Positions 28,280 through 64,000 are shown, numbered from the stretch's first letter. The stretch: DNA of 64,000 bases from an uncultured Anaerolineaceae bacterium (GCA_964446575.1 CAYUOX010000072.1:3327-67326), one strand, 5' to 3'. Notes: generated from the letters alone by a model not told the origin. Made by a program: numbers and translations.

Positions 28280-28351
28280 GCCCCCATCGTCTAGGGGTTA
28301 GGACACGGGCCTTTCAAGCCCGCGGCCGGGGTTCGAATCCCCGTGGGGGCA
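28280..28351 (+). tRNA. tRNA-Glu (anticodon UUC), CCA not encoded
   Basis: The cloverleaf was folded by hand. The acceptor stem is GCCCCCA/TGGGGGC. The anticodon stem is CGGGC/GCCCG with loop CTTTCAA. The T arm is CGGGG-TTCGAAT-CCCCG. The discriminator is A, followed by CAG. Confidence 0.95.
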
Positions 28352-52065: not shown

Positions 52066-52095
52066 TTGGCGAAAAGGCGTCTTTTGTGCTATGAT
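52066..52095 (+). promoter_or_regulatory. Promoter candidate TTGGCG-N18-TGcTATGAT for the receiver/GAF/ParA operon
   Basis: The extended -10 TGCTATGAT lies at 52087-52095, 84 nt upstream of GTG 52179. Confidence 0.45.
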
Positions 52096-52178
52096 AGGGG
52101 TGTGGCTGGGCAACTTCCTTAAAAGGGGGCCCAGACGAATGGTATTTACTCAATCTCTTAGGAAGAAGGACGGACTCC

Positions 52179-52544
52179 GTGGCCGGAAAATGCATCCTCT
52201 ATGTCGAAGACAACGCGGACAACCGCATGTTGATCCGGCGGCTGCTCATGGCCGAGGGCTTTGAACTCATCGAAGCCGAGAACGCGGACCAAATGTGGGC
52301 CGTCCTCAAAGAGCACCGCCCGGATTTGATTCTCATGGATTTGCACTTGCCGGGGGTCGATGGGTTCACCCTGACGCGCCAAGTGACATCCGACCCCCGC
52401 TACGCGGACATTCCAGTAGTGGCCCTGACGGCCGACGTGCTGCGCGACACGCCGCAGCGTTGCAGCGAGGCCGGATGCGTGGGCTACATCACCAAGCCCA
52501 TTGACGTGGATTCGTTCATCGAAAACCTGCGGCGCTTTTTGTGA
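52179..52544 (+). CDS. Stand-alone response-regulator receiver (CheY-like)
   Basis: 121 aa with a GTG start. Carries ILYVEDN...DLILMDLHLPGVDG...VVALTAD...YITKPID, so all phospho-transfer residues are present. Confidence 0.85.
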   Translation: MAGKCILYVEDNADNRMLIRRLLMAEGFELIEAENADQMWAVLKEHRPDLILMDLHLPGVDGFTLTRQVTSDPRYADIPVVALTADVLRDTPQRCSEAGCVGYITKPIDVDSFIENLRRFL

Positions 52545-52565
52545 GTCGCAGTGGGGAGAGCACCC

Positions 52566-53000
52566 ATGACTCTGGAATCGCAAGCGTCGGTGCCCGACGC
52601 GGCTGCAGACGACAAGCCGTTGGTGCTGGTGGTGGAGGACAACGTCGCCAATTTCGTCCTCATCGCCCGCATGTTGGGGTTCATCGGCATTGAGACTAAA
52701 TGGAAAACCTCGGGCTACGAAGTGGTCGAATTCGCCCAACGGATGCCTCGACTGGATTTGATCTTGATGGATCTGCGCCTGCCCTATGAGAGCGGTTACG
52801 AGGCGTTGGAGAAAATTCGCGCTTCGGAGCATCTCAAAGATGTTCCCGTGGTCGCGGTGACCGCGGAGGCCAGCCAGGAGCAAATGCGCAAAGCCCGCGA
52901 AGCCGGCTTCAACGGCTTCATCGGCAAACCCTTAGACCCTGATCGCTTTCCCGAGCAAATTCGGCGCATCTTGGCCGGCGAAGAGGTGTGGGAGTTGTGA
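52566..53000 (+). CDS. Stand-alone response-regulator receiver (CheY-like)
   Basis: 144 aa from ATG 52566 (GGGGAG lies 7 nt upstream). Carries VLVVEDN...DLILMDLRLPYESG...VVAVTAE...FIGKPLD. Confidence 0.85.
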   Translation: MTLESQASVPDAAADDKPLVLVVEDNVANFVLIARMLGFIGIETKWKTSGYEVVEFAQRMPRLDLILMDLRLPYESGYEALEKIRASEHLKDVPVVAVTAEASQEQMRKAREAGFNGFIGKPLDPDRFPEQIRRILAGEEVWEL

Positions 53001-53064
53001 GGGTGCTGCACCCGCGTTGTACCCCGGAGTGTGGGACTGCGCATCCTATGGTGAGGTTTGAGGC

Positions 53065-56000
53065 ATGAGTTTGCCGCCCATTCCGTTCGACCCCGACGAC
53101 CGGGAGCCTGACGCCACGCCTCCTCCGGTGCCCCCGGCCGACGCGGAAGCCTTCGCCGATTTGGCCTTCGACGAAGAGCCCGAGAGCGCGGCACCATCGG
53201 CGCCCCCTCGGCCCCAGGAGACGACCGGCCGGCCGCGCCGTCGGTTCCGCCGGCGTTTGGTGCTGCGCTTGGCATTGCTGCTCCTCGGCAGTGTGCTCCT
53301 GCCGCTGACCATCGAAGGAATCTGGTTCTACTATCGCACCTACAGCGAAGCCGTGCAACTGAACCTGCGCCGTGAAGAACTGGTCCTGGACTTTGCCTTC
53401 AGCGATTTGAATGCCTGGCTGGTGCAGCGGCAGGCGCGGGTGGAAACCGCGCTGACCATGCAGGACCTCCAAGACGCGCTCCACGTGCTTTGGACGGCCT
53501 CGCCCGAGAGCCGTCGCTTCGCCAACGCGCGCAGCATTTTGCTGCATCGTTTGGAACAACGCACCCGAACCGAGGGCGGCGTGCCCCTGTACACCGATTT
53601 TGCGCTGGTCACCCCGGCCCAAAAGGTGTTGATCGCCAGCGAGCCCGAATGGGAAGGCAAACCCTTGGCCGAAGTGCCTTTTGGCCCATCGCTGCAACAG
53701 CGGTGGGACATTGCCACAGCCCAGACCTGGCATTGGGTGTACCCGCTGGATACACCTAACCCCACCGATGACGCTTTGGGCGTGGGCAGCACTTTTCCGC
53801 TGTACGACCAGGACGGTAACTTGCAAGGCCTGCTGGTTGGCTTGGCCTCCGACCTGATCGTGCAAGAGACGCTGACGCGTTTGGGCCGTTGGCTTCCGCA
53901 AGGGCAGAGCGTCTTCGTGACCGAAGAGGGGCGGGTCTACCAGTGGGATTCTTCCATGCAAACCCTGCAGATGGTGGACGACCCCTTGCTGGCCCAACTG
54001 GTGTCTGTGCTGGCGCAGCAGCCGCGCGAAACCGTGCTGCTGGGCGAGGTCGACCGTTGGGACGTCTTGTTGGCCCGTTGGGGATTGGGGTCGGCCACCC
54101 GTTTAGTGCCTTATGCCCACACCGATCTGCAGGTTGTCTTTCCTTTGTGGTGGTTAGACGCACCCGGCATCATCGGTTTGGCTGGGTGGATCGAACCCTT
54201 GCGGGCCACGCTGGTGGTGAGCAATCCCGAGTCGATTGCCGTGGCCGGCGTGACCAATCTGCTGCGTTTGCGCCTGTGGGTGTGGAGCGCGCTGTTGGTT
54301 TTGACCTTGGGCGTGGCCGTGTTGTTCGGCCGTCGCTTGTTGCGCCAAGTGTATGACCTGGTGCGGGTGGCCGAAGCCTTTGCTCAAGGCCATTGGGATC
54401 AGCGGGCCGAGGTGGTGGGCAACGACGAGATGGCCTTGCTGGCCTATACTTTCAACGATTTGGCCGACCAATTGCAAGAGACCTATGCCACTATGGAGCG
54501 CGAACTGAACTTGCGCACCCAACAGGTGCAGTTGGTGGTGACCATGGCCACCGTCGCGCTGGAAGGGGGCTCGGAATCTGCACAAGTGTTGCGCACCATC
54601 TTACAGCGGATGGGTGAGCGCTTCCCGCGCTTTGCCTACTTGTCGTTGCGCTTGTGGCACGCGCCCGACCAAGGTTGGCAACCCGCGGCGCGCATTTCGC
54701 GCTTACCTCAAGCCGTGAACTTGGCCTTGCGCTCCTTCGAGCCACATTTGGCCTCAGAAGTCGGGCGCACCCTGGACATGCGCATGTGGGCCAACGAAGA
54801 CGGCCAGACTTTGCGCTTGCCCCCGCCGCTGAGTTGGATGGTGGGCGTGCCGCTGAGCACCCCCCAACGCCTCATGGGCGTGCTGTTCGTCGGCGGCGTC
54901 GATACCAGCCTGCCGGGCGAGTACGACCGCTTCGCGCTGCGCTTGCTGGCCCGTCAATTGTCGTTGGTGCTGGAGTATCTGCACTTGAACCGCGGGCAAG
55001 CGTTGGAGGCTGAAAAGCAACGCGTGATTCGGCATCTGCTGGAACGCTTGCCGTCGCTGAGCCACAGTTCCCAAGTCGTGCCGGCTTTGGTGGAAGGGCT
55101 CGGCGAGGCCCGCGCGCAAGGGGTGTTGCTCGTGCCTTCGCCCGAGTTGACCGACACTTGGAGCGTGGCCTATCCGCCGGCGAAGGATGACAAGGCGACC
55201 ACGTCGGTGCGCAACTTGCTCTCTCTCATCAGCGATGGGCCGGCCCACCTGGTGGTAGACGAGGGCGAAGGTATGGGCGTGGCCGTATTGGCCCGGCTCT
55301 ACAACTGGCAGACCATTGGCTTGTATCCGGTGCGCGACCCTCAAGGCCGCATCTTGGCTGTGTGGGCGCGTGGCACCCGCTTGGGCGAAAGCGAAACCCC
55401 CTTGGACCGCGAGCGGGAACGCTTGTTCACCGATTTGCTGGGCTGGGCGTTCTTGTACGCGGACATCCAGCAGCGGCTTTCGGTGTGGGAAGTGGTGCAA
55501 AAGATCTTGGAATACGCGCCCGAAGCGCCCTCTGAGGGCCACCTCTACTTGCGGGCGTGGGATTTGCTGCAAAAATACTTGCCCGAGGCCGATTTCTTTG
55601 TGGCCTCGCATCGGGGCGGCAGCAGCGCGTACACATTCATCTATCCGCACGGACAGCGTTACTACCACACCACTGTCACGCCCGTCGAACAGTCCTTGAT
55701 ACAGCAAGTGGCTGAGCGGGGGCAACCGCTGTTGTTGAGCGACAAGCACAAAGTCATCGCCCAGGCGGGCAAGGTCATGCGGGTCGCGACGCGCATCCCC
55801 GAATCGTGGCTGGGCGTGCCCGTGGTGCTGGGCCAGCAACGCTTGGGCGTCATCGGCTTGGTGCAATGGGAGAAACCGCGCGCGTTCTCGGCCGAACATC
55901 TCGCGTATTTGCGCACGTTGAGCCAGGGGCTGGCCGGCGTGATGTTCTCCATCCAGCAGGAAAGCCGCTTGCGGCGTCGCATCGAGCGCGAGCAGTCGTT

Positions 56001-56163
56001 GCGGACGTTCGCCCAACGCCTCACAGGGCTCACCGACGTGCGCAACATGTTGGAGTTCAGCGCAGCCGAAATTCAGCGCCTGTTCGAAGCGCGTCAGGTC
56101 GAAATCGAGTTGTTCGTCACGCCCCAAGAGACCGAAGAGGACGGCGCGACCGCCGAAGGGTAG
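53065..56163 (+). CDS. Membrane sensor: 2 TM + ~330-aa extracytoplasmic domain + HAMP + multiple GAF-like domains, no output domain seen
   Basis: 1032 aa. Has an acidic/Pro-rich N-terminus. TM1 is RLALLLLGSVLLPLTI and TM2 is LWVWSALLVLTLGVAVLF. The HAMP-like segment is RRLLRQVYDLVRVAEAFAQGHWDQRAEVVGNDEMALLAYTFNDLADQL. Degenerate GAF units follow. Confidence 0.85.
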   Translation: MSLPPIPFDPDDREPDATPPPVPPADAEAFADLAFDEEPESAAPSAPPRPQETTGRPRRRFRRRLVLRLALLLLGSVLLPLTIEGIWFYYRTYSEAVQLNLRREELVLDFAFSDLNAWLVQRQARVETALTMQDLQDALHVLWTASPESRRFANARSILLHRLEQRTRTEGGVPLYTDFALVTPAQKVLIASEPEWEGKPLAEVPFGPSLQQRWDIATAQTWHWVYPLDTPNPTDDALGVGSTFPLYDQDGNLQGLLVGLASDLIVQETLTRLGRWLPQGQSVFVTEEGRVYQWDSSMQTLQMVDDPLLAQLVSVLAQQPRETVLLGEVDRWDVLLARWGLGSATRLVPYAHTDLQVVFPLWWLDAPGIIGLAGWIEPLRATLVVSNPESIAVAGVTNLLRLRLWVWSALLVLTLGVAVLFGRRLLRQVYDLVRVAEAFAQGHWDQRAEVVGNDEMALLAYTFNDLADQLQETYATMERELNLRTQQVQLVVTMATVALEGGSESAQVLRTILQRMGERFPRFAYLSLRLWHAPDQGWQPAARISRLPQAVNLALRSFEPHLASEVGRTLDMRMWANEDGQTLRLPPPLSWMVGVPLSTPQRLMGVLFVGGVDTSLPGEYDRFALRLLARQLSLVLEYLHLNRGQALEAEKQRVIRHLLERLPSLSHSSQVVPALVEGLGEARAQGVLLVPSPELTDTWSVAYPPAKDDKATTSVRNLLSLISDGPAHLVVDEGEGMGVAVLARLYNWQTIGLYPVRDPQGRILAVWARGTRLGESETPLDRERERLFTDLLGWAFLYADIQQRLSVWEVVQKILEYAPEAPSEGHLYLRAWDLLQKYLPEADFFVASHRGGSSAYTFIYPHGQRYYHTTVTPVEQSLIQQVAERGQPLLLSDKHKVIAQAGKVMRVATRIPESWLGVPVVLGQQRLGVIGLVQWEKPRAFSAEHLAYLRTLSQGLAGVMFSIQQESRLRRRIEREQSLRTFAQRLTGLTDVRNMLEFSAAEIQRLFEARQVEIELFVTPQETEEDGATAEG

Positions 56164-56174
56164 GAGTGTAATCC

Positions 56175-57887
56175 ATGAGCCGAGTGTCTGCGAGCCATCA
56201 AGAGAGCGCGCCCTATCAGTCGGCCTCTTTTGGGCAGCAAATGCACCTTTATCGGGAGCGTTTGCTCTCCCTCTTGCTGACCTTGGTTGGCACTTTGCTG
56301 CCCGCGTTGTTCGCCGCGTATCTATGGCGTTTTTGGGACTACCCCGTCCTGCGCTGGATTTATCTGGCGTTGTTGACGGCCAGTTTCCTTTTGGGGTGGG
56401 GCCGGGCCTTGATCCCCTTCCCCTATTCGGTGCGGGTGGGCTTTCTGTTGGGCATGGTCTACATCATGGCCGTGTACGCGGCGCTCTTTTACGGCAATCT
56501 GGGCGAGGCCAACTTGTCGTTCCTTTTCAATGTGTTGGCCGGTGCGGTGTTCCTCTCGGGGTGGCTGGTGGTGCTCAACACCGTGTTCGCGGTAGGGCTG
56601 CATTTCTTGACCAGTTACTTGGTGGTGGAGCAGGGCCTGACGCTGGCTAAGTTGACCAATGTGCCTGCCAACATCCTGCTGGCCCCTACCCAATGGGTGT
56701 ACACCAGCAGCGCTTTTCTCATCGTGAGCATTGGCGTGGTGGGGCTGTTGTATTTCATCCAGAAGCGCTTTGAAACCACGCTGGAAGACACGATTCAACT
56801 CACGCGCATCTTAGAGCAAGAACGCCAGCGCCTGAGCGATCGTGAGCGCTTGCTGCGCCGCCGGGTGCGCCAAATTCGGGCTGCCAGTGAAATCGTCAAT
56901 ACGCTGGGCGCGATTTCAGACCCAAAGAAACTCATGGACGAGGTGGTGGACCAAATCCAGCGCCAGTTCGGCTTGTATTATGTGGGGATCTTCTTGGTCG
57001 ACGAAAGTTTCGAGTTCGCGGTGTTGCGGGCCGGCAGTGGTCAGGCCGGGCAGCGCATGGTCACCGAGGGGTATCGCCTGCCGTTGGGCGGGACCTCGAT
57101 GATCGCGTGGGCCATCACGCACCAAGAGCCGCGCGTGGCGTTGAATGTGCAGCAAGATCCCACCCACTACGAAAACCCCTATCTGCCCTACACCCGCTCT
57201 GAGTTGGCGTTGCCCTTGGTCGCGCGTGGCGAGGTTCTGGGCGCGATGACTATCCAATCGGATCGGGCCGATGCCTTTGACGAAGAGGATTTGCGCACGC
57301 TGCAAACGCTGGCCAATAGTGTGGCCTTGGCCTTGTCGAATGTGCTCATGGTGCAGCGCCTGCAAAACCAGTTGCGCGAAATCGAAGCGTTGCAGCAACG
57401 CCTGTTGGGCCAGACATGGGGCGAGTTGACCCAAGGCTTGCTGGTGCGTCGCGAGGCCCCCAAAGTCGGTCCGGCCGCGGTCGAAGAGACCGACGAAGGC
57501 GCGACGCTCACGCTGCCCATTCGCCTCTATCACCAAAAAATCGGCGAAGTGCGCATCGCCAGCCCGCGGCCATGGCAGGAGGGCGAGGCCGACTTGTTGG
57601 AAGGCATTGTCGCCCTGCTCACCAACCACCTCATGGTGGCCCGCCTGTTGGATGAAGTGCAGCAATACGCGCGGCGTGAGGAAGTGCAGAACGAACTCGC
57701 GGCCCGCTTTGCGTCCGCGCTGGATTTCGAATTGCTGGCCCGGTCCGCGCTGGAGGGGTTGAGTGAGGCCTTCCAAGTTCAAGAAGCCTGGTTGGTGTTG
57801 GATGTCTTCGGCAGCACCAACGGCGACACCGCGGAAGGCACGCCGGCCGAGCAACCTGGCCCTCGGCCCGGAGGTGAAGCGGCATGA
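56175..57887 (+). CDS. Polytopic membrane protein (about 6 TM) + coiled coil + GAF domain, no output domain seen
   Basis: 570 aa. The GAF domain reads FGLYYVGIFLVDESFEFAVLRAG...SELALPLVARGEVLGAMTIQSDRADAFDEEDLRTLQTLANSVALAL. AGGAG precedes ATG 56175. Confidence 0.85.
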   Translation: MSRVSASHQESAPYQSASFGQQMHLYRERLLSLLLTLVGTLLPALFAAYLWRFWDYPVLRWIYLALLTASFLLGWGRALIPFPYSVRVGFLLGMVYIMAVYAALFYGNLGEANLSFLFNVLAGAVFLSGWLVVLNTVFAVGLHFLTSYLVVEQGLTLAKLTNVPANILLAPTQWVYTSSAFLIVSIGVVGLLYFIQKRFETTLEDTIQLTRILEQERQRLSDRERLLRRRVRQIRAASEIVNTLGAISDPKKLMDEVVDQIQRQFGLYYVGIFLVDESFEFAVLRAGSGQAGQRMVTEGYRLPLGGTSMIAWAITHQEPRVALNVQQDPTHYENPYLPYTRSELALPLVARGEVLGAMTIQSDRADAFDEEDLRTLQTLANSVALALSNVLMVQRLQNQLREIEALQQRLLGQTWGELTQGLLVRREAPKVGPAAVEETDEGATLTLPIRLYHQKIGEVRIASPRPWQEGEADLLEGIVALLTNHLMVARLLDEVQQYARREEVQNELAARFASALDFELLARSALEGLSEAFQVQEAWLVLDVFGSTNGDTAEGTPAEQPGPRPGGEAA

Positions 57888-60800
57888 TCTCCGACGAGCG
57901 AACCCTGTCCATCCCGCGGCCTCAGCACACGCTGCGACGCACGGTGCGCCAGTTCACCGTGACCATTGCATTGGTCATGGTGTTGTTGGGCGTGTTCGTG
58001 GGCTATCAAGTGTTTTCGTTGCGGGCTATTGTGTTGCAGATGTACAAAGACATAGAGCCGTTGCTGTTGAGCAACGAAACCATCGCGCTCATCGAACGCT
58101 CGGCCCACATTCTGCGGGAGATTCAATCTTCGCTGCACGACCCCGAAGCCATCGAAGCCAATCAGTTGCGGTGGAGCGAACAATTGGTCGCGCTGCACAG
58201 CGCGTTGGACTCCAACCGCCGCGATCTCGAAGCCTTTGTCGATACACTGCCCGTAGACGACCCCTTGCAGCCGCCGCTGGCGCGCTCGTGGGCGTTGCTG
58301 CGTGAGACCACCCGCTTGGTCCAAGAGATCACCCAGGCGATCAACCACCGCCGTTGGGATGACGCGGACGCGCTGATTCGGCGTTTCTTCACCGTATACG
58401 AGGAATATCACCTCGCGCAACGCTTCATTGTGCGCAGTTTCGAAGAGCGCCGCGACGCCACCCTGGCGCGCATGCTGCGGGCCCTGCGGCAAATCCTCTT
58501 CCAACCGGCTGTGACGGCCGCGGTCTCGCTGATCTTGGTGTGGTTCTTCGCCCGCTTCGTGATCGTGCGCATCATTCGGCCGTTGGAGGAAACCGCCGCG
58601 GGCGTGTTGCGCTTCGCGGAGGGCGACTACAACTACCGCTTGGAAGTGCCGGAAGAGGCCGAGGGCGAGGTCGCCTATTTGCGTCGGGTGTTCAACGTGA
58701 TGGCTGAGCGGGTGCAAGCCGCGCAGTTGACATTGGAGCAACGGGTCGCGGAGCGCACCTACGCGCTCCAACGCCGCGTGGCCCAGATTCAGGCCGCGGC
58801 CGACATCGCCCGTTTGCTCACCTCGTTGCGCGCGCCTGAGGTCCTGCTGGAACGCACCGCCCGCCTCATTGCCGAGCGTTTCGGCTACTACCATGTGGGC
58901 ATCTTTTTGCTGGACGAGACCGGCGAATGGATGGAACTGCGCGCGGCCAGTAGCGAAGGTGGTTTGCGCATGGTCGCCCGGCGGCACCGGCTGCGGGTCG
59001 GCGAAGAGGGCGTGGTCGGCTTTGTCGCTCGCACCGGCAACCCGCGCATTGTGTTGGACGTGGAAGAGGACCCGCATTATGTGCGCCCTGAAGAATTGGC
59101 GTTGACCCGCTCCGAAATGGCCTTGCCGCTGCGCGTTGGCGGGCGCATCTTGGGCGTGTTGGACATCCAAAGCACGCAGCCCAACGCGTTTTCCCCTGAA
59201 GACGTGACCACCTTGCGCGTGGTCGCCGACCAATTGGCCGTGGCCTTAGACAACGCCTATCTGTTGCAACGCATGGAACGCGCGTTGGACGAATTGCACT
59301 GGGTGCAGCGGCAACTTTCCCGCCGCGGGTGGGAGGAGTTCTTGCGCGTCGCGCCGGCCCAAGTCTACCGCCGCACCGCGCGCGGCGAGTTTGAGGCCTT
59401 GCCCGAGCACGTCGAAGAACGGCCACGCGATGCCGAAGCCCAGTTCCACGAATTGCAGGTGCCGATTTCGGTACGCGAGCAGCCCATCGCCACGCTGGTG
59501 CTGCGCCGTCTGCAGCCGTGGCAAGAGCCTGAGCGTCAGATGCTGCAAGACTTGGCCGATCGGCTGGGCTTGGCCTTGGAAAGCGCGCGTTTGTTCTACA
59601 TCGCGCAACGCCGCTCGGCCTGGCTGCAAGCCGCGGTGGAACTGGGGCGCATTCTGCGCTCTTGGGATGAAGAAACCCTGTTGCGCGAGTTCGTGCGGGC
59701 CCTGCTGGAGCGTTTCCCCCTGTGGCGCGCGGCGCTGTATATCTATCGGGCAGACGAACGCCGCCTGGAAGTGCACGCGGCCGCAGGCGACCGCTGGGAA
59801 GATTTGCTCGCACCACCGCCCCACGCGGTTCCTCTGCCCTCGGACGACCCCTTGGGCCAAGCCGCCCAGCGACGCGCGCCCATGCTGTTGAATTCCCCCG
59901 AGGCCATGCAGGCCTTCGAAGACACCGCGCCGGTGCCGCCGGGTGGCTCGCGGTTGGTACTGCCGATTTTGCTGGGCGAAGCCTTGTTTGGCGTGTTGGA
60001 CTTGCACGCGGAACGGCCGCGGGCGTTTTTGGAGGCCGACATCACGGTCTTGCGGCTGCTGGTGGATTCGTTGGGCGTGGCCTTGCTCAACGCCCGCTTG
60101 GTGGCCCGTTTGCGGGTGCTGCTGGGCGAACAGCAGCGCCTGCAAGCCGCGTTGGCCCAAGCGACCGCGGCCGCGTCGGTGCCCGAAGCCCTGGACGTCG
60201 TGGTGCAGGCCCTGTACGAACTGGAACCTCCGCAGTCCGCGGCCATCTACTTGCCGGCCGAGGACGACCCCTCCCGCTTGCTTCGGATCGCGGCTCGGCA
60301 CCACCCCGAGGCGGGCGCTCCCTGGCCAGACGAGGTCGCGGTCCAAGACGAACAGCACCCCGTCGCCTGGGCCTTCAGCCATCAAGGTGCCTTGTGGTTC
60401 AACGAGGTCGATTGGTTCGACGACCGAATGCGCGGCCAAGGCTCGTTGTTGGTCGTGCCGATCGTGTACGGCGAGGAGCCCCTGGGGGTGATCGCCCTGC
60501 GCCATGGGCAGGCCAACGCTTATAGCGAAGACTTCTGGGGCCTGGCCCATACCGCGGCCGCCGCCGTCGGGAGTCTGCTGTCGAACCTGCGCTTGTTGGA
60601 GCAGGTCCAACGGCGCTCCGCGCAACTGCAACTGCTCTACGACTTTACCGCGGCCATCTCCGGATACACCGACTTCACCGCTTTGGTCCAAGACGCGGTG
60701 GCGCGCTTCCGCAGCATTTTCGACGCCCTGCACGCGGGCATCTTGATTTACGATTTAGAGCGGAGCGTGGTGCGTCTGGTGGCCACGGCCTCGCGCGCGC

Positions 60801-61414
60801 CCGACGTGCCAGGGGCAGCAGATTGGGGGCCGCGCGATTTGCCCATGGTGGAGGGTTCGCCTTTTGTGCGCTTGCGCGAAAACCCGCGCGTGTTGGTGGT
60901 CACGCAGCAACAATTGCAGCACGCGCCCGCGCGCCTGCGCGCGGCCATCGAAGCGCGCGGGGTGCGCAGCCAGGTGCTCGCTCCCCTCATTGTGGGCGAC
61001 GAACTCCTGGGTTTGGTCGCGCTGGGCTTTGAGACCGACGAGCCCCCCTTGGGTACCTCCGATTTGGCCGTGCTGGAGCAGTTGGCCCGCCAGTTGTCCT
61101 TGGCCATGGAGTTGACCCGCTTGCTCGAACGCTTGGAGCGCCGCGCACAGCGCGAGCGCTGGGTGCGGGAGATCACCGTGCGGATGCGTTCCAGCAGCGA
61201 TCCGTTGGCGATTTTGCGCATGGCCCTGGAAGGCTTGCGCGAGCAGTTGCATCTGCAAGAAGCGCAAATTCTGCTGACCCGCCCGGCCGGAACGCCACCC
61301 GTTGTGGGCAAAGGTGCGCGTCCCGGCTCCGCGCCCTCGACCAAAACCCGTGGCGATGGTCGGGAGGGACCGTCCGCGGCGGCAGCACCCGCCGCGGATG
61401 GAGAGGAGGCTTGA
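57884..61414 (+). CDS. Membrane sensor: 2 TM + helical extracytoplasmic domain + HAMP + 4-5 GAF domains, no output domain seen
   Basis: 1176 aa. There is an ATGA overlap with the upstream stop (57884-57887). The HAMP segment is RIIRPLEETAAGVLRFAEGDYNYRLEVPEEAEGEVAYLRRVFNVMAERV. A GAF example is FGYYHVGIFLLDETGEWMELRAA...SEMALPLRVGGRILGVLDIQSTQPNAF. Confidence 0.85.
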   Translation: MISDERTLSIPRPQHTLRRTVRQFTVTIALVMVLLGVFVGYQVFSLRAIVLQMYKDIEPLLLSNETIALIERSAHILREIQSSLHDPEAIEANQLRWSEQLVALHSALDSNRRDLEAFVDTLPVDDPLQPPLARSWALLRETTRLVQEITQAINHRRWDDADALIRRFFTVYEEYHLAQRFIVRSFEERRDATLARMLRALRQILFQPAVTAAVSLILVWFFARFVIVRIIRPLEETAAGVLRFAEGDYNYRLEVPEEAEGEVAYLRRVFNVMAERVQAAQLTLEQRVAERTYALQRRVAQIQAAADIARLLTSLRAPEVLLERTARLIAERFGYYHVGIFLLDETGEWMELRAASSEGGLRMVARRHRLRVGEEGVVGFVARTGNPRIVLDVEEDPHYVRPEELALTRSEMALPLRVGGRILGVLDIQSTQPNAFSPEDVTTLRVVADQLAVALDNAYLLQRMERALDELHWVQRQLSRRGWEEFLRVAPAQVYRRTARGEFEALPEHVEERPRDAEAQFHELQVPISVREQPIATLVLRRLQPWQEPERQMLQDLADRLGLALESARLFYIAQRRSAWLQAAVELGRILRSWDEETLLREFVRALLERFPLWRAALYIYRADERRLEVHAAAGDRWEDLLAPPPHAVPLPSDDPLGQAAQRRAPMLLNSPEAMQAFEDTAPVPPGGSRLVLPILLGEALFGVLDLHAERPRAFLEADITVLRLLVDSLGVALLNARLVARLRVLLGEQQRLQAALAQATAAASVPEALDVVVQALYELEPPQSAAIYLPAEDDPSRLLRIAARHHPEAGAPWPDEVAVQDEQHPVAWAFSHQGALWFNEVDWFDDRMRGQGSLLVVPIVYGEEPLGVIALRHGQANAYSEDFWGLAHTAAAAVGSLLSNLRLLEQVQRRSAQLQLLYDFTAAISGYTDFTALVQDAVARFRSIFDALHAGILIYDLERSVVRLVATASRAPDVPGAADWGPRDLPMVEGSPFVRLRENPRVLVVTQQQLQHAPARLRAAIEARGVRSQVLAPLIVGDELLGLVALGFETDEPPLGTSDLAVLEQLARQLSLAMELTRLLERLERRAQRERWVREITVRMRSSSDPLAILRMALEGLREQLHLQEAQILLTRPAGTPPVVGKGARPGSAPSTKTRGDGREGPSAAAAPAADGEEA

Positions 61415-61415
61415 C

Positions 61416-62261
61416 ATGGCCGGAGGTCCATCCGTCCAACCCCGCATTTGGGCTTTTGCCCATCAAAAAGGCGGTGTGGCCAAGACGACCAGCGCGCTGG
61501 GCGTCGCGGGGGCCTTGACCGAAATGGGCCACCGCGTGCTGGCCGTCGACTTGGACCCCCAAGCCAGTCTGACGCTGGCTTTGGGGCACCGGCCCGCGGA
61601 AATTCACACCTCGCTGGCCCAAGTGCTGGCCAATCAGGTGCCTTGGCACGCGGCCTTGCTCAAAACCGATGTCGAAAATTTGGATGTGTTGCCGGCCACG
61701 GGGCGCTTGAGTCAAATCGGCAGCCATTGGCTGGGCGCGGGGGTGTACGACGGCGTGCGTCGCGTGTTGCAGCCAATTCGGGGATACGACTTCATCGTGC
61801 TGGACACGCCTCCCTCGCTGAGCATCTTTACCGTCAACGCTTTGGTGGCAGCCCATTTGCTCTTGATTCCCACCCAGCCGGAATATTTCTCGGCCTATGC
61901 CATTCGCCATGTGCTGCAATTGGTGCAGTGGGTGCGCGATACGTACAACCCGGAACTCAAGTATCGCATCTTCATCACCATGTTCCAAAAGCGCAATCGT
62001 GCCCATGCCCTGATTCGCTCGCGTTTGGAAACCACGTTTGGCGTAGGTCTGTGTCAAACCTTAGTGGGTGTGGACACCAAATTGCGCGAAGCCGCGATCG
62101 CGGGTTTGCCGATTCAATATTTCGCTTCGCGTTCACGCGCCGCAGACCAATACCGGGCTTTGACCCAGGAGGTACTGGCTTATGACCAGCAAACGCCGAC
62201 GCAAGTCCTCATCCAGTCCCGCCAAGAAGCGGCTGGAAGAGCGACTGCTGGCGCTGAATGA
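61416..62261 (+). CDS. ParA/MinD-family P-loop ATPase (orphan, no ParB seen)
   Basis: 281 aa. ATG 61416 lies 1 nt after the upstream stop and is preceded by GAGAGGAGG. Carries the deviant Walker A AHQKGGVAKTT, VLAVDLDPQASLT and the Walker B FIVLDTPPS. Confidence 0.85.
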   Translation: MAGGPSVQPRIWAFAHQKGGVAKTTSALGVAGALTEMGHRVLAVDLDPQASLTLALGHRPAEIHTSLAQVLANQVPWHAALLKTDVENLDVLPATGRLSQIGSHWLGAGVYDGVRRVLQPIRGYDFIVLDTPPSLSIFTVNALVAAHLLLIPTQPEYFSAYAIRHVLQLVQWVRDTYNPELKYRIFITMFQKRNRAHALIRSRLETTFGVGLCQTLVGVDTKLREAAIAGLPIQYFASRSRAADQYRALTQEVLAYDQQTPTQVLIQSRQEAAGRATAGAE

Positions 62262-64000
62262 GGATTTGGAACCATCGTCCCAGCCCTCGGTCGCCCCGCC
62301 CACGCCCACACCCCCCGCGGTAGACACGGAAACGCCTCCTTCGGGCTTGTTGGTCGACCCATGGGCGACCGCGGCGCTGGACACGGGCCAATTGGTGGTC
62401 GACACCGACGCCTGGACAACGCTGCTGGAGCAGACCACCTTTGGCCTGCGCGCGGACGCGCAAGGCCACGTTGAGACCCACCGCCAACCGTTGACCCCGG
62501 TGGGCGAAGATAGTCTGCGCACGCACGAGCCACGCTGGACCCGCACCGACGACCAAGCCGTGTTGTCGTTGCCGTTGATGTATCAGAACTTCGAAATCCT
62601 GTTCGAAGGTCTGGCGCCGTCGGAGCGGCAATGGCTGGAAGAAGATCGCGAAATCGTGCGGCAGACTTTGGAGCAGTTGGCCCTGGCCCTGCAAGACGCG
62701 TACTTGTTCACCAGCACGCAGCAGGCTTTGGCAGAGGTCGAGCGTCTGTACAAAGCCACCAGCCAACTGCTGGAAGGCACCACCTTTGCCCAAGGTCTGC
62801 AAGTCTTGGCCGAATATACGGTATTGGGCCGGGCCCAGGCCCTGTATCTTTACCTGCCCGGCCTGCGCGCCCCGCGGCCCGAGGGCGGGGCCGCGCCTGA
62901 GCACATGCGCTTGTATGCGCGCTGGCCCGAAACCGCGCCTGCCCACATGCCCGACGAACTGCATTTGCGGCCTACGGATGTCCCGCGCCGTATGTTGTGG
63001 GCCTTGCCGAGGGATGATTCCCGTCTGCCCGCGGCGGTGCAGCAGGCGCTGCAGGCGATGGATGTGCAGGCTGTGACCGTGGTGCCCTTGTTCGTCGGCC
63101 CTGACTTGGTCGGCGCGCTGGCCGCGGTGTTCGCCGAAACTCCTCCTGCGCCCCCGGCTCGTGAGCAGCGCATCCTCAATGCCTTGTTGCGCCAGGTGGC
63201 CGGCTATGTGCGCAGCCTGGCCTTGCAAGAAAACCTGCGTTTTACGCTGGAACTGACCAACCGTTTGTACCGCATCGCGCTGGGCCTCAGCCGGGCTGAT
63301 AGTTTCGACGACATCATGCAGGTGATGTGGGAACACACGCCTTTGGGCCAGGGCGCGTTGTCGATTTCTTGTGTGTTGTTCGAGCCCGCGATGACCGAGT
63401 CGCAAATGCCTCGCTGGCTCGTGACCGCGTCGGTGGTCGCGAACGGCAAACCTGTGCCAACCCATTGGCCGCGTTTGCCCTTCGCGCCCTTGTTCGAGAC
63501 CGCGCTCACCGTAGAGGGGCCCTACTTGGTCGAAGACCCCGAAGGGGAGAACATCCTGCGGCGCGTTTTCTTGGAAGGCAAGCCATATCTGATTCATGAC
63601 ATGGCTTCCGAAGTGGCGTTGTCGCAATCGTTCCTCAACGAATATCGGCAACGCATCCCGGCCCGCAGCGGTATTCTGGTCCCCTTGCGGGTAGGCGATG
63701 CGGTGGTGGGTATGCTGACCGGCACCTACCCTGACCTGCGCGCGTGGACCCAAGACGATTTGCAAATTCTGTTGGTGGCTGCGGCCCAAGCCGCGGTGCG
63801 GGTGCGCAGTTTGTATTTGCTGCAAGTCAGTGAGCGCCGGGCCCGCCAGTTGGAGACGGCATCGGTCATCGCGCGCGACATCGGTCGAACGCTGTCGCTG
63901 GAGACGTTGCTCAATCGCGCGGTCAATTTGATTCGCGAGCGCTTTGGCTTCTACCACGCGACCGTGTTCTTGCTCGACGAACGCGGCGAATACGCGGAGG
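62182..64000 (+). CDS. Cytoplasmic multi-GAF protein with a basic N-terminal tail (partial, continues beyond the window)
   Basis: It is absent from the ORF track because it has no stop within the window. I translated the first ~250 codons and the last 14 by hand and found no stop, and the frame is consistent at both ends. It reads MTSKRRRKSSSSPAKKRLEE... and ends ...IRERFGFYHATVFLLDERGEYAE (start of a GAF). AGGAGG lies 9 nt upstream of ATG 62182. The start overlaps the ParA gene by 80 nt, so it is uncertain. Confidence 0.7.
   Translation, partial: MTSKRRRKSSSSPAKKRLEERLLALNEDLEPSSQPSVAPPTPTPPAVDTETPPSGLLVDPWATAALDTGQLVVDTDAWTTLLEQTTFGLRADAQGHVETHRQPLTPVGEDSLRTHEPRWTRTDDQAVLSLPLMYQNFEILFEGLAPSERQWLEEDREIVRQTLEQLALALQDAYLFTSTQQALAEVERLYKATSQLLEGTTFAQGLQVLAEYTVLGRAQALYLYLPGLRAPRPEGGAAPEHMRLYARWPETAPAHMPDELHLRPTDVPRRMLWALPRDDSRLPAAVQQALQAMDVQAVTVVPLFVGPDLVGALAAVFAETPPAPPAREQRILNALLRQVAGYVRSLALQENLRFTLELTNRLYRIALGLSRADSFDDIMQVMWEHTPLGQGALSISCVLFEPAMTESQMPRWLVTASVVANGKPVPTHWPRLPFAPLFETALTVEGPYLVEDPEGENILRRVFLEGKPYLIHDMASEVALSQSFLNEYRQRIPARSGILVPLRVGDAVVGMLTGTYPDLRAWTQDDLQILLVAAAQAAVRVRSLYLLQVSERRARQLETASVIARDIGRTLSLETLLNRAVNLIRERFGFYHATVFLLDERGEYAE

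What the first reader, a model, noticed from the sequence alone, without database searches (positions are those of the whole stretch)
52066..64000. Operon of more than 12 kb: two orphan receivers, four output-less HAMP/multi-GAF proteins and an embedded ParA-like ATPase
At least seven co-directional genes (52179 to beyond 64000) are packed with 1-64 nt gaps or overlaps, including an ATGA overlap at 57884-57887.
- The three membrane proteins carry three different input modules. One has a ~330-aa extracytoplasmic domain between 2 TM. One has a ~6-TM polytopic domain. One has a ~160-aa helical extracytoplasmic domain between 2 TM.
- Two of the three have a HAMP segment, and all continue into chains of GAF domains.
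- None of the three complete proteins ends in a histidine kinase, GGDEF/EAL, cyclase, methyl-accepting (MCP) or DNA-binding module that I can recognise.
- Two canonical CheY-like receivers open the operon, but no kinase is visible.
- A ParA/MinD-type ATPase sits between the third and fourth GAF proteins.

ParA-like ATPases embedded in signalling operons are known to position chemoreceptor arrays (PpfA in Rhodobacter, ParC in Vibrio). By analogy, this could be a spatially organised, GAF-based signalling scaffold of a type I do not recognise as described.
Basis: partly seen in the sequence, partly recalled or inferred. Interest (0 to 1): 0.72.

Follow-up and report, generated by a model that had tools for sequence, protein, structure and literature searches.

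The report
ParA-linked multi-sensor histidine kinase cluster
This is a large signalling gene cluster conserved across Anaerolineae-type Chloroflexota whose "missing" kinase is simply cut off by the window end, but whose embedded ParA-type ATPase seems to be paired with that kinase through a ParB/ParP-like N-terminal peptide.

Summary
They are tightly packed on one strand.

The "no kinase" puzzle is a window-edge artefact. A metagenome contig identical to the window bar one base shows that gene 7 is a 1223-aa cytoplasmic GAF-HisKA-HATPase_c histidine kinase. A receiver-fused threonine-synthase-like enzyme and an EamA exporter follow it.

The whole cluster is conserved in Anaerolineales/Chloroflexota MAGs, down to about 41-45% ParA identity. 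The order is REC-REC, several output-less GAF sensors, ParA, GAF-kinase, ThrC-like/REC, EamA.

The gene after ParA nearly always overlaps the end of ParA. It opens with a conserved basic peptide, consensus M-[PS]-KKK-x-[IL]-[DN]-KRL-[DNE]-x-LF-x-D. Chloroflexota ParP-like CheW proteins carry the same kind of peptide after their own ParA-like genes, and classical ParB sits in the same position.

My reading is an ordinary two-component core with accessory sensors, plus a ParA that positions or regulates the kinase/GAF complex. That pairing looks undescribed, but it is inferred from sequence only.

Verdict: a new variant of a known kind, of moderate interest.

The parts
52066..52095 (+). Promoter-like site (TTGGCG-18-TATGAT with an upstream TG) in the 377-nt gap before REC1
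   Evidence: Consensus scan. It is a pattern match only (3 sites found against 1.9 expected in shuffles). The upstream ABC-transporter gene is divergent.
52179..52544 (+). REC1: single-domain response regulator, 121 aa
   Evidence: Response_reg 1.1e-25. The acidic pair (VEDN), phospho-acceptor Asp (LILMDLHLP), Thr (ALTA) and Lys (TKP) are visible. A REC-REC pair opens the cluster in L003, L005, L006, L008, L011, L094 and L095.
52551..53000 (+). REC2: single-domain response regulator, 149 aa (the metagenome gene call starts at 52566, giving 144 aa)
   Evidence: Response_reg 6.2e-21. Canonical residues are visible.
53065..56163 (+). G1: membrane sensor without an output domain. It has 2 TM, a periplasmic domain of about 315 aa (weakly dCache-like), a HAMP, three GAF or GAF-like modules, and ends in a truncated GAF start
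   Evidence: Pfam HAMP 1.1e-08 and GAF_2 7.9e-14. TM segments 65-83 and 405-423. dCache_1 E 0.007, and a full-length weak GAF at 505-640. hhalign of residues 660-800 against GAF gives E 0.0018. Orthologues in relatives hit dCache_1 clearly.
56175..57887 (+). G2: six-TM (MASE11-like) sensor followed by a signalling helix, one GAF, a beta-hairpin and helices, with no output domain
   Evidence: GAF 1.2e-18. Six hydrophobic segments. AlphaFold2 model m4ca1ac253027, pLDDT 79. Foldseek against PDB finds only GAF folds. Orthologues at 33-41% identity hit PF20969 MASE11. By my reading of the Pfam column, roughly 85 of 107 relatives carry no output domain.
57884..61414 (+). G3: 2-TM sensor with an extracytoplasmic segment of about 168 aa, a HAMP, four full GAFs plus one half-GAF, and a truncated GAF start at the C-terminus. 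No output domain. Its start overlaps the G2 stop (ATGA)
   Evidence: GAF_2 8.9e-57 in 4 stretches and HAMP 1.2e-06. Local GAF profile segmentation: 315-460, 501-570, 593-739, 763-904, 928-1080. TM segments. Its first GAF is 52% identical to the kinase-proximal GAF of the histidine kinase.
61416..62261 (+). ParA/Soj-type ATPase, 281 aa, starting 1 nt after the G3 stop
   Evidence: AAA_31 6.6e-42 and CbiA 6.3e-16. Deviant Walker A QKGGVAKTT. K18, K23, D45, D47, D130 and R224 are invariant in 25 homologues. The closest solved structures are 8ray and T. thermophilus Soj 1wcv. The ParAs from conserved clusters form one Chloroflexota clade.
62182..62271 (+). N-terminal basic peptide of the kinase (MTSKRRRKSSSSPAKKRLEERLLALNEDLE). 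I propose it is the ParA-contact / ATPase-activating peptide. It is encoded across the 3' end of ParA
   Evidence: AGGAGG lies 9 nt upstream of ATG 62182. In 37 loci the gene after ParA starts with M-[PS]-KKK-x-[IL]-[DN]-KRL-[DNE]-x-LF-x-D. Counts at the motif positions are R 31/37, L 30/37, L 34/37 and F 34/37. The same peptide type heads ParP-like CheW proteins. Its function is inferred, not shown.
62182..64000 (+). 5' part (606 of 1223 codons) of a cytoplasmic GAF-chain histidine kinase. The kinase core lies beyond the window end, at what would be window positions about 64355-65070, with the stop at 65853
   Evidence: Contig L001 differs from the window at 1 of 12585 shared bases. The full protein has GAF x3-4, HisKA 1.8e-20, HATPase_c 1.2e-31 and a weak receiver 4.9e-05. 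There are no TM segments, and the H-box SHELRTP and the N, G1, F and G2 boxes are present. The first receiver has Asn in place of the phospho-Asp in this lineage.

Best explanation
The region is the 5' two-thirds of a roughly 17-kb, nine-gene signalling cluster conserved in Anaerolineae-type Chloroflexota. The gene order is REC, REC, three output-less membrane sensors (G1-G3), a ParA-type ATPase, a soluble GAF-chain histidine kinase (gene 7, cut by the window end), a threonine-synthase-like PLP enzyme fused to a receiver, and an EamA-family exporter.

**Shown**
- The kinase exists and is canonical.
- The receivers are canonical.
- G1-G3 have no transmitter domain.
- The cluster and its gene order are conserved across many species-level genomes.
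- The gene after ParA starts inside the end of ParA with a conserved basic peptide.

**Inferred mechanism**
1. G1-G3 sense three different extracytoplasmic or membrane cues. They pass the signal through HAMP and signalling helices into their GAF chains.
2. Having no output of their own, they act as accessory co-sensors of the only transmitter in the cluster, the TM-less kinase. This probably works through GAF/helix contacts, because the membrane-proximal GAFs of G2 and G3 are close paralogues of the kinase-proximal GAF of the kinase.
3. The kinase phosphorylates REC1, REC2 and the receiver of the ThrC-like enzyme directly. There is no Hpt domain, and the kinase's own receiver has lost its Asp in this lineage.
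4. The outputs are the two single-domain regulators and control of the PLP enzyme, which is coupled to the exporter.
5. The ParA-type ATPase binds the N-terminal basic peptide of the kinase (a GAF-only protein in some relatives), as ParA/MinD ATPases bind ParB, MinE, PomX, McdB, TlpT or ParP. It thereby positions, partitions or sequesters the kinase/GAF complex, most likely on the nucleoid.
For: **Kinase and downstream genes.** Searches give the extension (1 mismatch in 12585 nt). One search gives HisKA, HATPase_c, PALP plus Response_reg, and EamA. One search shows the motifs and the absence of TM segments in the kinase.

**Conservation.**
- Contexts of ParA homologues at 78%, 64%, 54%, 50%, 48% and 45% identity all show the cluster.
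- Among 31 species-representative genomes with ParA at 180 bits or more: 21 of 23 with enough upstream sequence have long GAF genes upstream, 20 of 25 have the kinase downstream, 14 of 21 have ThrC-like/REC, and 15 of 21 have EamA.
- Only 1 of 49 lower-scoring loci has the cluster, and that one has a frameshifted ParA.
- Anchoring instead on ThrC-like/REC (3 of 3) or on G2 (2 of 2) recovers the same cluster while the outer flanks differ.

**Output-less sensors.**

**Shared GAF type.** 52%, 43% and 37% identity between the signature GAFs, against 30% or less for the other GAF pairs.

**ParA competence.** Walker A, A' and B are invariant. The Arg aligning with the Soj 'NVRL(A/S)EA' arginine is also invariant.

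**Peptide.**
- It is conserved in 37 loci, straddles the ParA stop, and is followed by low-complexity linkers.
- In the same scan, classical ParB (K-x-LGRGL-x-ALL) occupies the same position after ParA.
- Chloroflexota CheW-domain proteins with ParP architecture carry the same peptide type after their ParA-like genes. The ParP architecture is described in PMC5706961.
Against: - No experiment or co-folding supports any protein-protein contact. G1-G3 to kinase coupling rests on co-location and GAF paralogy only.
- Part of the peptide is encoded in the ParA overlap, so some of its conservation could be shared constraint. The L-F-x-D part lies outside the overlap in most loci.
- One cluster (L094) lacks ParA, yet its kinase keeps the motif with fewer basic residues.
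- Four ParAs of the same clade are stand-alone. Linkage is therefore not obligatory, and this ParA clade could also be the class's general Soj.
- The membrane anchoring of G1-G3 sits awkwardly with nucleoid-based positioning.
- ThrC-like/REC is much more conserved (60-70% identity) than the rest. It may be a housekeeping enzyme whose link to this kinase is only positional.
- NCBIfam ThrC scores fall just under their cut-offs.
Confidence: 0.6

Rival explanations
1. This is the reader's model: a kinase-independent, GAF-based scaffold. The GAF proteins and ParA form a spatially organised signalling structure that does not work through a histidine kinase.
For: Three sensors lack any output. In four loci (L008, L009, L041, L044) the peptide-bearing protein after ParA is a GAF-only protein rather than the kinase. 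ParA's direct partner may therefore be a GAF chain as such.
Against: A canonical HisKA/HATPase_c kinase lies in the same operon here and downstream of ParA in 20 of 25 relatives with enough sequence. Three of the four loci with a GAF-only partner (L008, L009, L044) still show a kinase further downstream. None was detected within the 10-kb flank of L041. Three canonical receiver domains are encoded alongside.
Confidence: 0.08
2. ParA acts as a regulatory switch rather than a positioning motor. Its ATP-bound dimer binds the kinase's N-terminal peptide and sequesters or allosterically gates the kinase, much as MinD-, MipZ-, FlhG- or BcsQ-like relatives recruit or inhibit partners. Alternatively it couples kinase activity to nucleoid or replication state.
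For: The evidence is the same as for the ParA-peptide pairing. The peptide is fused directly to the enzyme rather than to a scaffold. The membrane-bound sensors argue against free travel of the whole complex on the nucleoid.
Against: There is no sequence feature that separates this from positioning. The closest structures are Soj-type partition ATPases, and the DNA-binding arginine position is conserved. The known ParA partners with peptide-linker-cargo architecture are positioning systems (PMC7993993, PMC5706961).
Confidence: 0.2
3. The cluster is a set of co-located but functionally separate modules. ParA is simply the lineage's chromosomal or orphan Soj, ThrC-like/REC plus EamA is housekeeping amino-acid metabolism, and both happen to neighbour an ordinary multi-sensor two-component operon.
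For: Stand-alone members of the same ParA clade sit in housekeeping contexts. One cluster lacks ParA. ThrC-like/REC is highly conserved and very abundant.
Against: Gene order is kept while the outer flanks change. ParA is translationally coupled on both sides: 1-nt spacing upstream and a 14-80-nt overlap downstream. No ParB is adjacent, and the downstream gene carries the peptide instead. The receiver fused to the ThrC-like enzyme needs a kinase, and the adjacent kinase is the obvious donor.
Confidence: 0.12

Closest known systems
ParC-ParP (Vibrio, Pseudomonas): a ParA-like ATPase and its CheW-like adaptor that localise chemosensory arrays
   Same: A ParA-like gene is embedded in a signalling operon and followed at once by its partner. 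The partner is built as an N-terminal ParA-contact region, a low-complexity linker, and a domain that inserts into the signalling complex (PMC5706961). Chloroflexota ParP-like CheW proteins carry the same N-terminal peptide type as the kinase here.
   Different: The cargo here has no MCP, CheW or CheA domain. The peptide is fused directly to a GAF-chain histidine kinase, or to a GAF-only protein. Localisation to poles, nucleoid or elsewhere is unknown.
PpfA-TlpT (Rhodobacter sphaeroides): ParA-like segregation of the cytoplasmic chemoreceptor cluster
   Same: A soluble signalling protein with a basic N-terminal extension is the proposed activator and cargo of a ParA-like ATPase encoded in the same operon (summarised in PMC7993993). 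The kinase here is likewise cytoplasmic.
   Different: This is two-component rather than chemotaxis chemistry, and there are additional membrane-anchored output-less sensors. No experimental data exist.
ParABS, McdAB and PomXYZ: ParA/MinD ATPases with activating partners
   Same: Deviant Walker A ATPase of the Soj type. [quoted passage not shown]
   Different: No ParB or parS, no carboxysome genes, no PomX/Y. The partner is an enzyme (a kinase) rather than a DNA-binding or scaffold protein.
Multi-input two-component networks with kinase-less or accessory sensors (for example RetS/LadS-GacS, LuxP-LuxQ); from my own knowledge
   Same: Several sensor proteins converge on one transmitter, with single-domain receivers as outputs or phosphate sinks.
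   Different: The accessory sensors here are HAMP/GAF chains with no transmitter remnant at all. They are encoded three to six in a row and are paralogous to the kinase's own sensor chain.
Threonine synthase (ThrC, PRK08197 type with an N-terminal zinc ribbon)
   Same: A full-length PALP domain (2.6e-65), the SFKDR lysine motif, and best NCBIfam hits to ThrC models.
   Different: It carries a C-terminal canonical receiver domain. It scores just below the ThrC equivalog cut-offs (265 against 303 bits; 155.6 against 167.1). It is always paired with an EamA exporter and this kinase.

Membership tests
ParA/MinD (deviant Walker A) ATPases | Deviant Walker A motif KGGxxK[ST] with the signature lysine, plus the Walker A' and B aspartates | tested here: met
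   QKGGVAKTT. K18, K23, D45, D47 and D130 are invariant in 25 homologues. AAA_31 143.9 bits against a cut-off of 27, and CbiA 58.9 against 25.4.
ParA/MinD (deviant Walker A) ATPases | [quoted passage not shown] | tested here: met
   This is met at sequence level only. The downstream gene starts with a conserved basic peptide in 37 loci. The rule itself comes from PMC7993993. Binding and activation were not tested.
ParA/MinD (deviant Walker A) ATPases | ATP-dependent dimerisation, binding to a surface (nucleoid or membrane), and partner-stimulated ATPase activity | not testable with these tools
   The only indication is that invariant R224 aligns with the arginine of the Soj 'NVRLAEA' motif. 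There is no C-terminal amphipathic membrane helix.
ParABS chromosome/plasmid partition system | An adjacent ParB-type (or ParG/ParR-type) centromere-binding partner | tested here: not met
   The downstream gene is a GAF histidine kinase. No ParB domain appears in any of the nine products. Classical ParB N-termini do appear after non-cluster ParAs in the same scan.
ParC/ParP- or PpfA/TlpT-type chemosensory array positioning | Cargo made of MCP, CheW and CheA proteins | tested here: not met
   No MCPsignal, CheW or CheA domains are present in the cluster. CheW-bearing partners occur only in separate Chloroflexota loci, L047 and L062.
Classical two-component system (HisKA-type kinase plus receiver) | Kinase with an H-box histidine and an HATPase_c catalytic domain | tested here: met
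   HisKA 73.1 bits and HATPase_c 109.8 bits. SHELRTP and the N, G1, F and G2 boxes are present. The kinase core lies just beyond the window, on a contig with 1 mismatch in 12585 nt.
Classical two-component system (HisKA-type kinase plus receiver) | Receiver domains with the acidic pocket, phospho-Asp, Thr/Ser and Lys | tested here: met
   REC1, REC2 and the receiver of the ThrC-like enzyme all qualify.
Hybrid histidine kinase phosphorelay | A phospho-accepting receiver on the kinase, plus an Hpt domain | tested here: not met
   The kinase's first receiver has Asn at the phospho-Asp position in the window lineage (L001, L003, L005); the other 26 of 29 kinases in the alignment have Asp. No Hpt domain was listed in any cluster.
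Threonine synthase (ThrC) | A score above the curated equivalog cut-off, plus the PLP-lysine motif | tested here: inconclusive
   PRK08197 scores 265.3 against a cut-off of 303, and TIGR00260 scores 155.6 against 167.1. SFKDR is present. Substrate was not tested.
dCache_1 sensor domain (G1 periplasmic region) | A Pfam PF02743 match above the gathering score | tested here: inconclusive
   16.4 bits against a cut-off of 45 for the isolated segment. Counterparts in relatives have unmarked PF02743 hits on record, meaning E-value at most 1e-5.
MASE11 membrane sensor domain (G2) | A Pfam PF20969 match | tested here: inconclusive
   The window protein has no hit at E 0.1 or better. Orthologues at 33-41% identity carry PF20969. 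The six-helix bundle is modelled with pLDDT of about 85-90.

The most novel reading that the evidence does not exclude
Anaerolineae-type Chloroflexota carry a ParA-positioned "GAF-some". In this reading, arrays of output-less membrane GAF sensors dock a soluble histidine kinase whose own N-terminal peptide makes it the cargo and activator of a dedicated ParA. The complex would then be spaced and inherited along the long filamentous cells. Its output would be phosphorylation control of a receiver-fused threonine-synthase-like enzyme coupled to an EamA exporter, which would make and release an amino-acid-derived signal or metabolite. That would be the first ParA-organised two-component (non-chemotaxis) signalling machine, with a directly regulated biosynthetic enzyme as its output.
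Probability: 0.15. Interest if true: 0.85.

Novelty: new variant of a known kind. Interest (0 to 1): 0.6.

Why it matters
ParA/MinD ATPases are known to organise chromosomes, plasmids, carboxysomes, division sites and chemoreceptor arrays. A histidine kinase that carries the ParA-partner peptide itself would add ordinary two-component signalling to that cargo list.

It would also give a sequence rule for finding further cargos in Chloroflexota: a basic N-terminal peptide of the K-R-L-x-x-L-F type encoded across the ParA stop codon.

The cluster poses two other concrete questions:
- How do transmitter-less HAMP/GAF sensors, three to six in a row, pass signals to a soluble kinase?
- Why is a threonine-synthase-like enzyme, fused to a receiver and paired with an exporter, so strongly conserved (60-70% identity) across a whole bacterial class?

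All of these can be tested with purified proteins. That matters because most of these organisms are uncultured.

Tried and rejected
1. **Hidden output domains in G1-G3.** I ran whole-protein and segment-wise Pfam and NCBIfam scans, a PDB sequence search, an AlphaFold2 model of G2 with Foldseek, and hhalign of the unannotated G1 middle. Nothing but GAF or GAF-like modules turned up. The idea of a cryptic transmitter was dropped.
2. **The ORF 61448-62185 as ParA.** Its translation is a low-complexity wrong frame. The real gene is 61416-62261.
3. **The metagenome gene call for gene 7 (TTG 62347).** I rejected it in favour of ATG 62182, because of the Shine-Dalgarno site and the conserved peptide.
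4. **A riboswitch or other RNA leader.** Rfam at gathering thresholds finds only one tRNA in the whole window.
5. **Other related signalling genes elsewhere in the window.** None were found.
6. **Literature.** Searches for ParA-like plus GAF plus Chloroflexi, threonine synthase plus receiver, MASE11, and ParA cargo plus histidine kinase found no description of this cluster. The library is incomplete, so this is absence of evidence only.
7. **Organism identification.** The cluster-member look-up gave no names. The best species-representative genome is only 55% identical in ParA. The source is an unnamed Chloroflexota lineage.
8. **ParA-peptide co-loss test.** The one cluster without ParA (L094) still keeps the motif, so the test was inconclusive. 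Stand-alone ParAs of the same clade suggest the gene can sit elsewhere.
9. **An amino-acid-binding dCache motif in G1.** I looked by eye and saw no convincing match. I did not pursue it.

Full report
**1. Checking the observation**

ORF listing and translation plus Pfam confirm seven co-directional genes between 52179 and the window end.
- REC1, 52179-52544, and REC2, 52551-53000, both with a canonical Response_reg domain.
- G1, 53065-56163, 1032 aa.
- G2, 56175-57887, 570 aa.
- G3, 57884-61414, 1176 aa.
- A ParA-type ATPase, 61416-62261. AAA_31 scores 6.6e-42 and the Walker A motif is QKGGVAKTT.
- A GAF-rich gene that runs off the window.

The spacing is 6, 64, 11 and 1 nt.

A hydropathy scan supports the stated topologies. 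G1 has two TM segments about 315 residues apart. G2 has six hydrophobic segments. G3 has two TM segments about 168 residues apart. HAMP is found in G1 and G3.

A promoter-like site sits at 52066-52095. Terminator-like hairpins inside the operon are no more frequent than in shuffled sequence.

Two details needed correction. The listed ORF 61448-62185 is a wrong frame. Gene 7 starts at ATG 62182, inside the 3' end of ParA, with AGGAGG nine nucleotides upstream.

**2. The missing kinase**

An exact-protein look-up of ParA returned a 51-kb metagenome contig (L001). It differs from the window at 1 of 12585 shared bases.

On that contig gene 7 is 1223 aa long. Its architecture is as follows:
- a basic N-terminal peptide and a Pro-rich linker;
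- three to four GAF or GAF-like modules;
- HisKA (1.8e-20, H-box SHELRTP);
- HATPase_c (1.2e-31, with N, G1, F and G2 boxes);
- two receiver-like domains.

It has no TM segment.

The next two genes encode a zinc-ribbon/PALP enzyme fused to a canonical receiver, and an EamA-family transporter. The best NCBIfam hits for the enzyme are threonine synthase models, just under their cut-offs.

So "no kinase visible" is true only because the window ends about 350 nt before the kinase core.

**3. Are G1-G3 really output-less?**

Yes, as far as the tools can see.
- Whole-protein and segment-wise Pfam and NCBIfam scans find only HAMP, GAF and a weak dCache.
- A local GAF profile splits G3 into four full GAFs and one half-GAF.
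- The unannotated middle of G1 aligns end to end, weakly, with GAF.
- An AlphaFold2 model of G2 built on 44 homologues (pLDDT 79) shows six TM helices, a long signalling helix, one GAF, a beta-hairpin, two helices and a disordered tail.
- Foldseek against PDB returns only GAF folds.

All three proteins end with what looks by eye like the first helices and strand of a further GAF that then stops.

By my reading of the Pfam column, roughly 85 of the 107 database relatives of G2 likewise carry no output domain.

**4. Conservation**

Contexts of ParA homologues at 78, 64, 54, 50, 48 and 45% identity all show the same cluster. The order is REC-REC, three to six output-less dCache/HAMP/MASE11-GAF proteins, ParA, GAF protein(s) and a hybrid GAF kinase, ThrC-like/REC, then EamA.

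I scanned one genome per species with a ParA profile and scored synteny locally. Among the 31 loci with ParA at 180 bits or more, all from Anaerolineales/Chloroflexota MAGs:

| Feature | Loci with it / loci with enough flanking sequence |
|---|---|
| Long GAF genes upstream | 21 / 23 |
| Kinase downstream | 20 / 25 |
| ThrC-like/REC | 14 / 21 |
| EamA | 15 / 21 |

Only 1 of the 49 lower-scoring loci (Actinomycetota, Bacillota and others) has the cluster, and that one has a frameshifted ParA.

Anchoring on ThrC-like/REC (3 of 3) or on G2 (2 of 2) recovers the same cluster, while the genes beyond it differ.

ThrC-like/REC is the most conserved member. Its top 120 relatives are 60-93% identical and all have the PALP plus receiver architecture.

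**5. ParA and its probable partner**

The ATPase is Soj-like. Its closest solved structures are 8ray and T. thermophilus Soj. The Walker A, A' and B residues are invariant. So is an arginine that aligns with the arginine of the Soj 'NVRLAEA' motif. From my own knowledge, the equivalent residue in B. subtilis Soj is needed for non-specific DNA binding. I did not test that here.

There is no adjacent ParB. Instead, the gene after ParA starts 11-80 nt inside ParA in most cluster loci, and its product opens with a conserved peptide. The consensus is M-[PS]-K-K-K-x-[IL]-[DN]-K-R-L-[DNE]-x-L-F-x-D-[LI]. Across 37 loci the counts are Arg 31, Leu 30, Leu 34 and Phe 34. In many loci the peptide is followed by a low-complexity Pro/Ala/Lys/Glu linker. 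In the window the peptide reads MTSKRRRKSSSSPAKKRLEERLLALNEDLE.

This is the signature reported for activators of ParA/MinD ATPases. [quoted passage not shown]

Three internal controls from the same scan support the reading.
- Classical ParB proteins (K-x-LGRGL-x-ALL) occupy exactly this position after non-cluster ParAs.
- In two other Chloroflexota loci (L047, L062) the gene after a ParA-like gene encodes MSERKKKVEAALNNLF or MRRKSKIESALNSLF, then a long linker, then a CheW domain (9e-39 and 2e-29). That is the architecture of ParP, the adaptor that ties chemosensory arrays to the ParA-like ParC (PMC5706961).
- The peptide sits on different proteins in different genomes: the kinase in most, a GAF-only protein in L008, L009, L041 and L044, and a 249-aa protein with no recognised domain in L010. 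Position after ParA is the constant.

**6. Caveats on the ParA model**

- Part of the peptide is encoded in the overlap with ParA, so the constraint there is shared.
- One cluster (L094) lacks ParA, yet its kinase still begins MPTKSILNRLETFF.
- Four ParAs that nest inside the cluster clade are stand-alone in housekeeping neighbourhoods. Together with L094 this suggests the gene can be encoded elsewhere. It also leaves open that this clade is the class's general Soj.
- No interaction has been modelled or measured.

**7. How it most likely works**

*Shown:* a canonical kinase, three canonical receivers (REC1, REC2 and the ThrC-like receiver), three transmitter-less sensors, a competent-looking ParA, and conserved order with translational coupling.

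*Inferred:*
- G1-G3 act as accessory sensors for the only transmitter, the soluble kinase. The membrane-proximal GAFs of G3 and G2 are 52% and 37% identical to the kinase-proximal GAF of the kinase. Other GAF pairs are 30% identical or less. This fits either a shared ligand or hetero-association.
- In the window lineage the kinase's own receiver has Asn instead of the phospho-Asp; the other 26 of 29 kinases in the alignment have Asp. No Hpt domain is encoded. Direct His-to-Asp transfer to the stand-alone receivers is therefore the simplest route here.
- The outputs are the two single-domain regulators and the receiver-fused PLP enzyme with its exporter.
- ParA, through the N-terminal peptide, positions, partitions or gates the kinase/GAF complex.

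I put about 0.95 on the two-component core and the conservation. I put about 0.65-0.7 on the peptide being a ParA-contact motif, about 0.5 on G1-G3 feeding the kinase, and about 0.6 on the ThrC-like receiver being its substrate.

**8. Comparison with known systems and novelty**

The system works like ParC-ParP and PpfA-TlpT. Each has a ParA-like ATPase in a signalling operon, with a partner built as peptide, linker and cargo. It is not a member of those systems, because no MCP, CheW or CheA domain is present. It is not ParABS either, because there is no ParB. It is a genuine HisKA-type two-component system.

I found no paper describing this cluster, a ParA-paired histidine kinase, or a receiver-fused threonine synthase. 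The library is partial, so this is not proof of novelty.

I class it as a new variant of a known kind and score interest at 0.6. The headline puzzle, receivers without a kinase, dissolves. What remains is a class-wide, roughly 17-kb signalling cluster with a ParA whose likely cargo is a kinase, which is unusual and directly testable.

Noticed in passing
L047 3195-4942; L062 1045-2629: Other Chloroflexota loci have a ParA-like gene followed by a protein built as a basic N-terminal peptide (MSERKKKVEAALNNLF / MRRKSKIESALNSLF), a long Pro/Ala/Ser linker and a CheW domain. That is a ParC/ParP-like pair. In L062 a REC-PAS-GAF-HisKA kinase follows.
   Followed up: partly
L054-L090 (for example L055 10740 onward, L063, L067): In Actinomycetota (Solirubrobacterales, Gaiellales, Thermoleophilia) the ParA gene is followed by a protein of about 400-540 aa that begins MARRNKRASMREGPLADLFRST. 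This is a conserved ParA-partner N-terminus that differs from the classical ParB LGRGL motif. I did not identify the protein.
   Followed up: no
L094 6028-21680, and L028 10016-10810 / L040 9998-10774: One otherwise complete cluster (REC-REC, four GAF genes, kinase, ThrC-like/REC) has no ParA gene. Conversely, ParAs nesting in the cluster clade stand alone next to polyprenyl synthase/GidA-family or PlsX genes. Whether the two arrangements occur in the same genomes is unknown.
   Followed up: partly
Beyond the window: L001 12,830-13,150 (kinase receiver); compare L006, L011, L013 and others: The first receiver of the kinase has Asn in place of the phospho-accepting Asp (FINPFLP) in the window lineage only (L001, L003, L005). 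The other 26 of 29 kinases in the alignment keep LDIMMPG. This looks like a lineage-specific switch from a hybrid kinase to a pseudo-receiver.
   Followed up: partly
L006 18642-20786; L010 16939-20789; L014, L018, L021, L023, L024, L027, L030, L078 (minus strand after EamA): In many relatives a second two-component module follows EamA on the opposite strand. Where Pfam calls are on record (L006, L010) it is an OmpR-type regulator, a REC-GAF-HisKA-HATPase kinase and often a further GAF kinase. The other loci were scored only with the local REC and kinase-core searches. The module is absent from the window lineage, which has a PolX/PHP polymerase and an ABC transporter there instead.
   Followed up: no
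L001 14535-16238 (would be window 65950-67653) and homologues P0228-P0347: The threonine-synthase-like enzyme with an N-terminal zinc ribbon and a C-terminal receiver is very abundant and 60-93% identical across Chloroflexota metagenome proteins. That is far more conserved than the sensors or ParA. Whether it is the only ThrC of these organisms was not determined.
   Followed up: partly
window 28280-28351 (+): This is the only Rfam hit at gathering threshold in the 64-kb window: one tRNA gene (66.5 bits).
   Followed up: no
L078 10026-13161; L027 12979-16597; L010 14083-15737: ParA, the kinase or the ThrC-like gene is split into two or three ORFs in some MAG contigs. These may be assembly frameshifts or real pseudogenes. 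They lower the synteny counts slightly.
   Followed up: no
L008 13807-14601; L009 15069-15452; L010 10755-11504: Lineage-specific insertions occur between ParA and the kinase. They are a Methyltransf_19 gene, a 127-aa protein with no domain hit, and a 249-aa domain-less protein that carries the ParA-partner peptide by itself.
   Followed up: no
L042 811-3339: In a Caldilineaceae MAG the gene after a ParA-like gene encodes an 843-aa protein that begins MTHNKSLEEQLQSLFSG and carries a PD40/WD40-like repeat (Pfam 6.9e-08). It may be yet another cargo class with a related N-terminus that has few basic residues.
   Followed up: no
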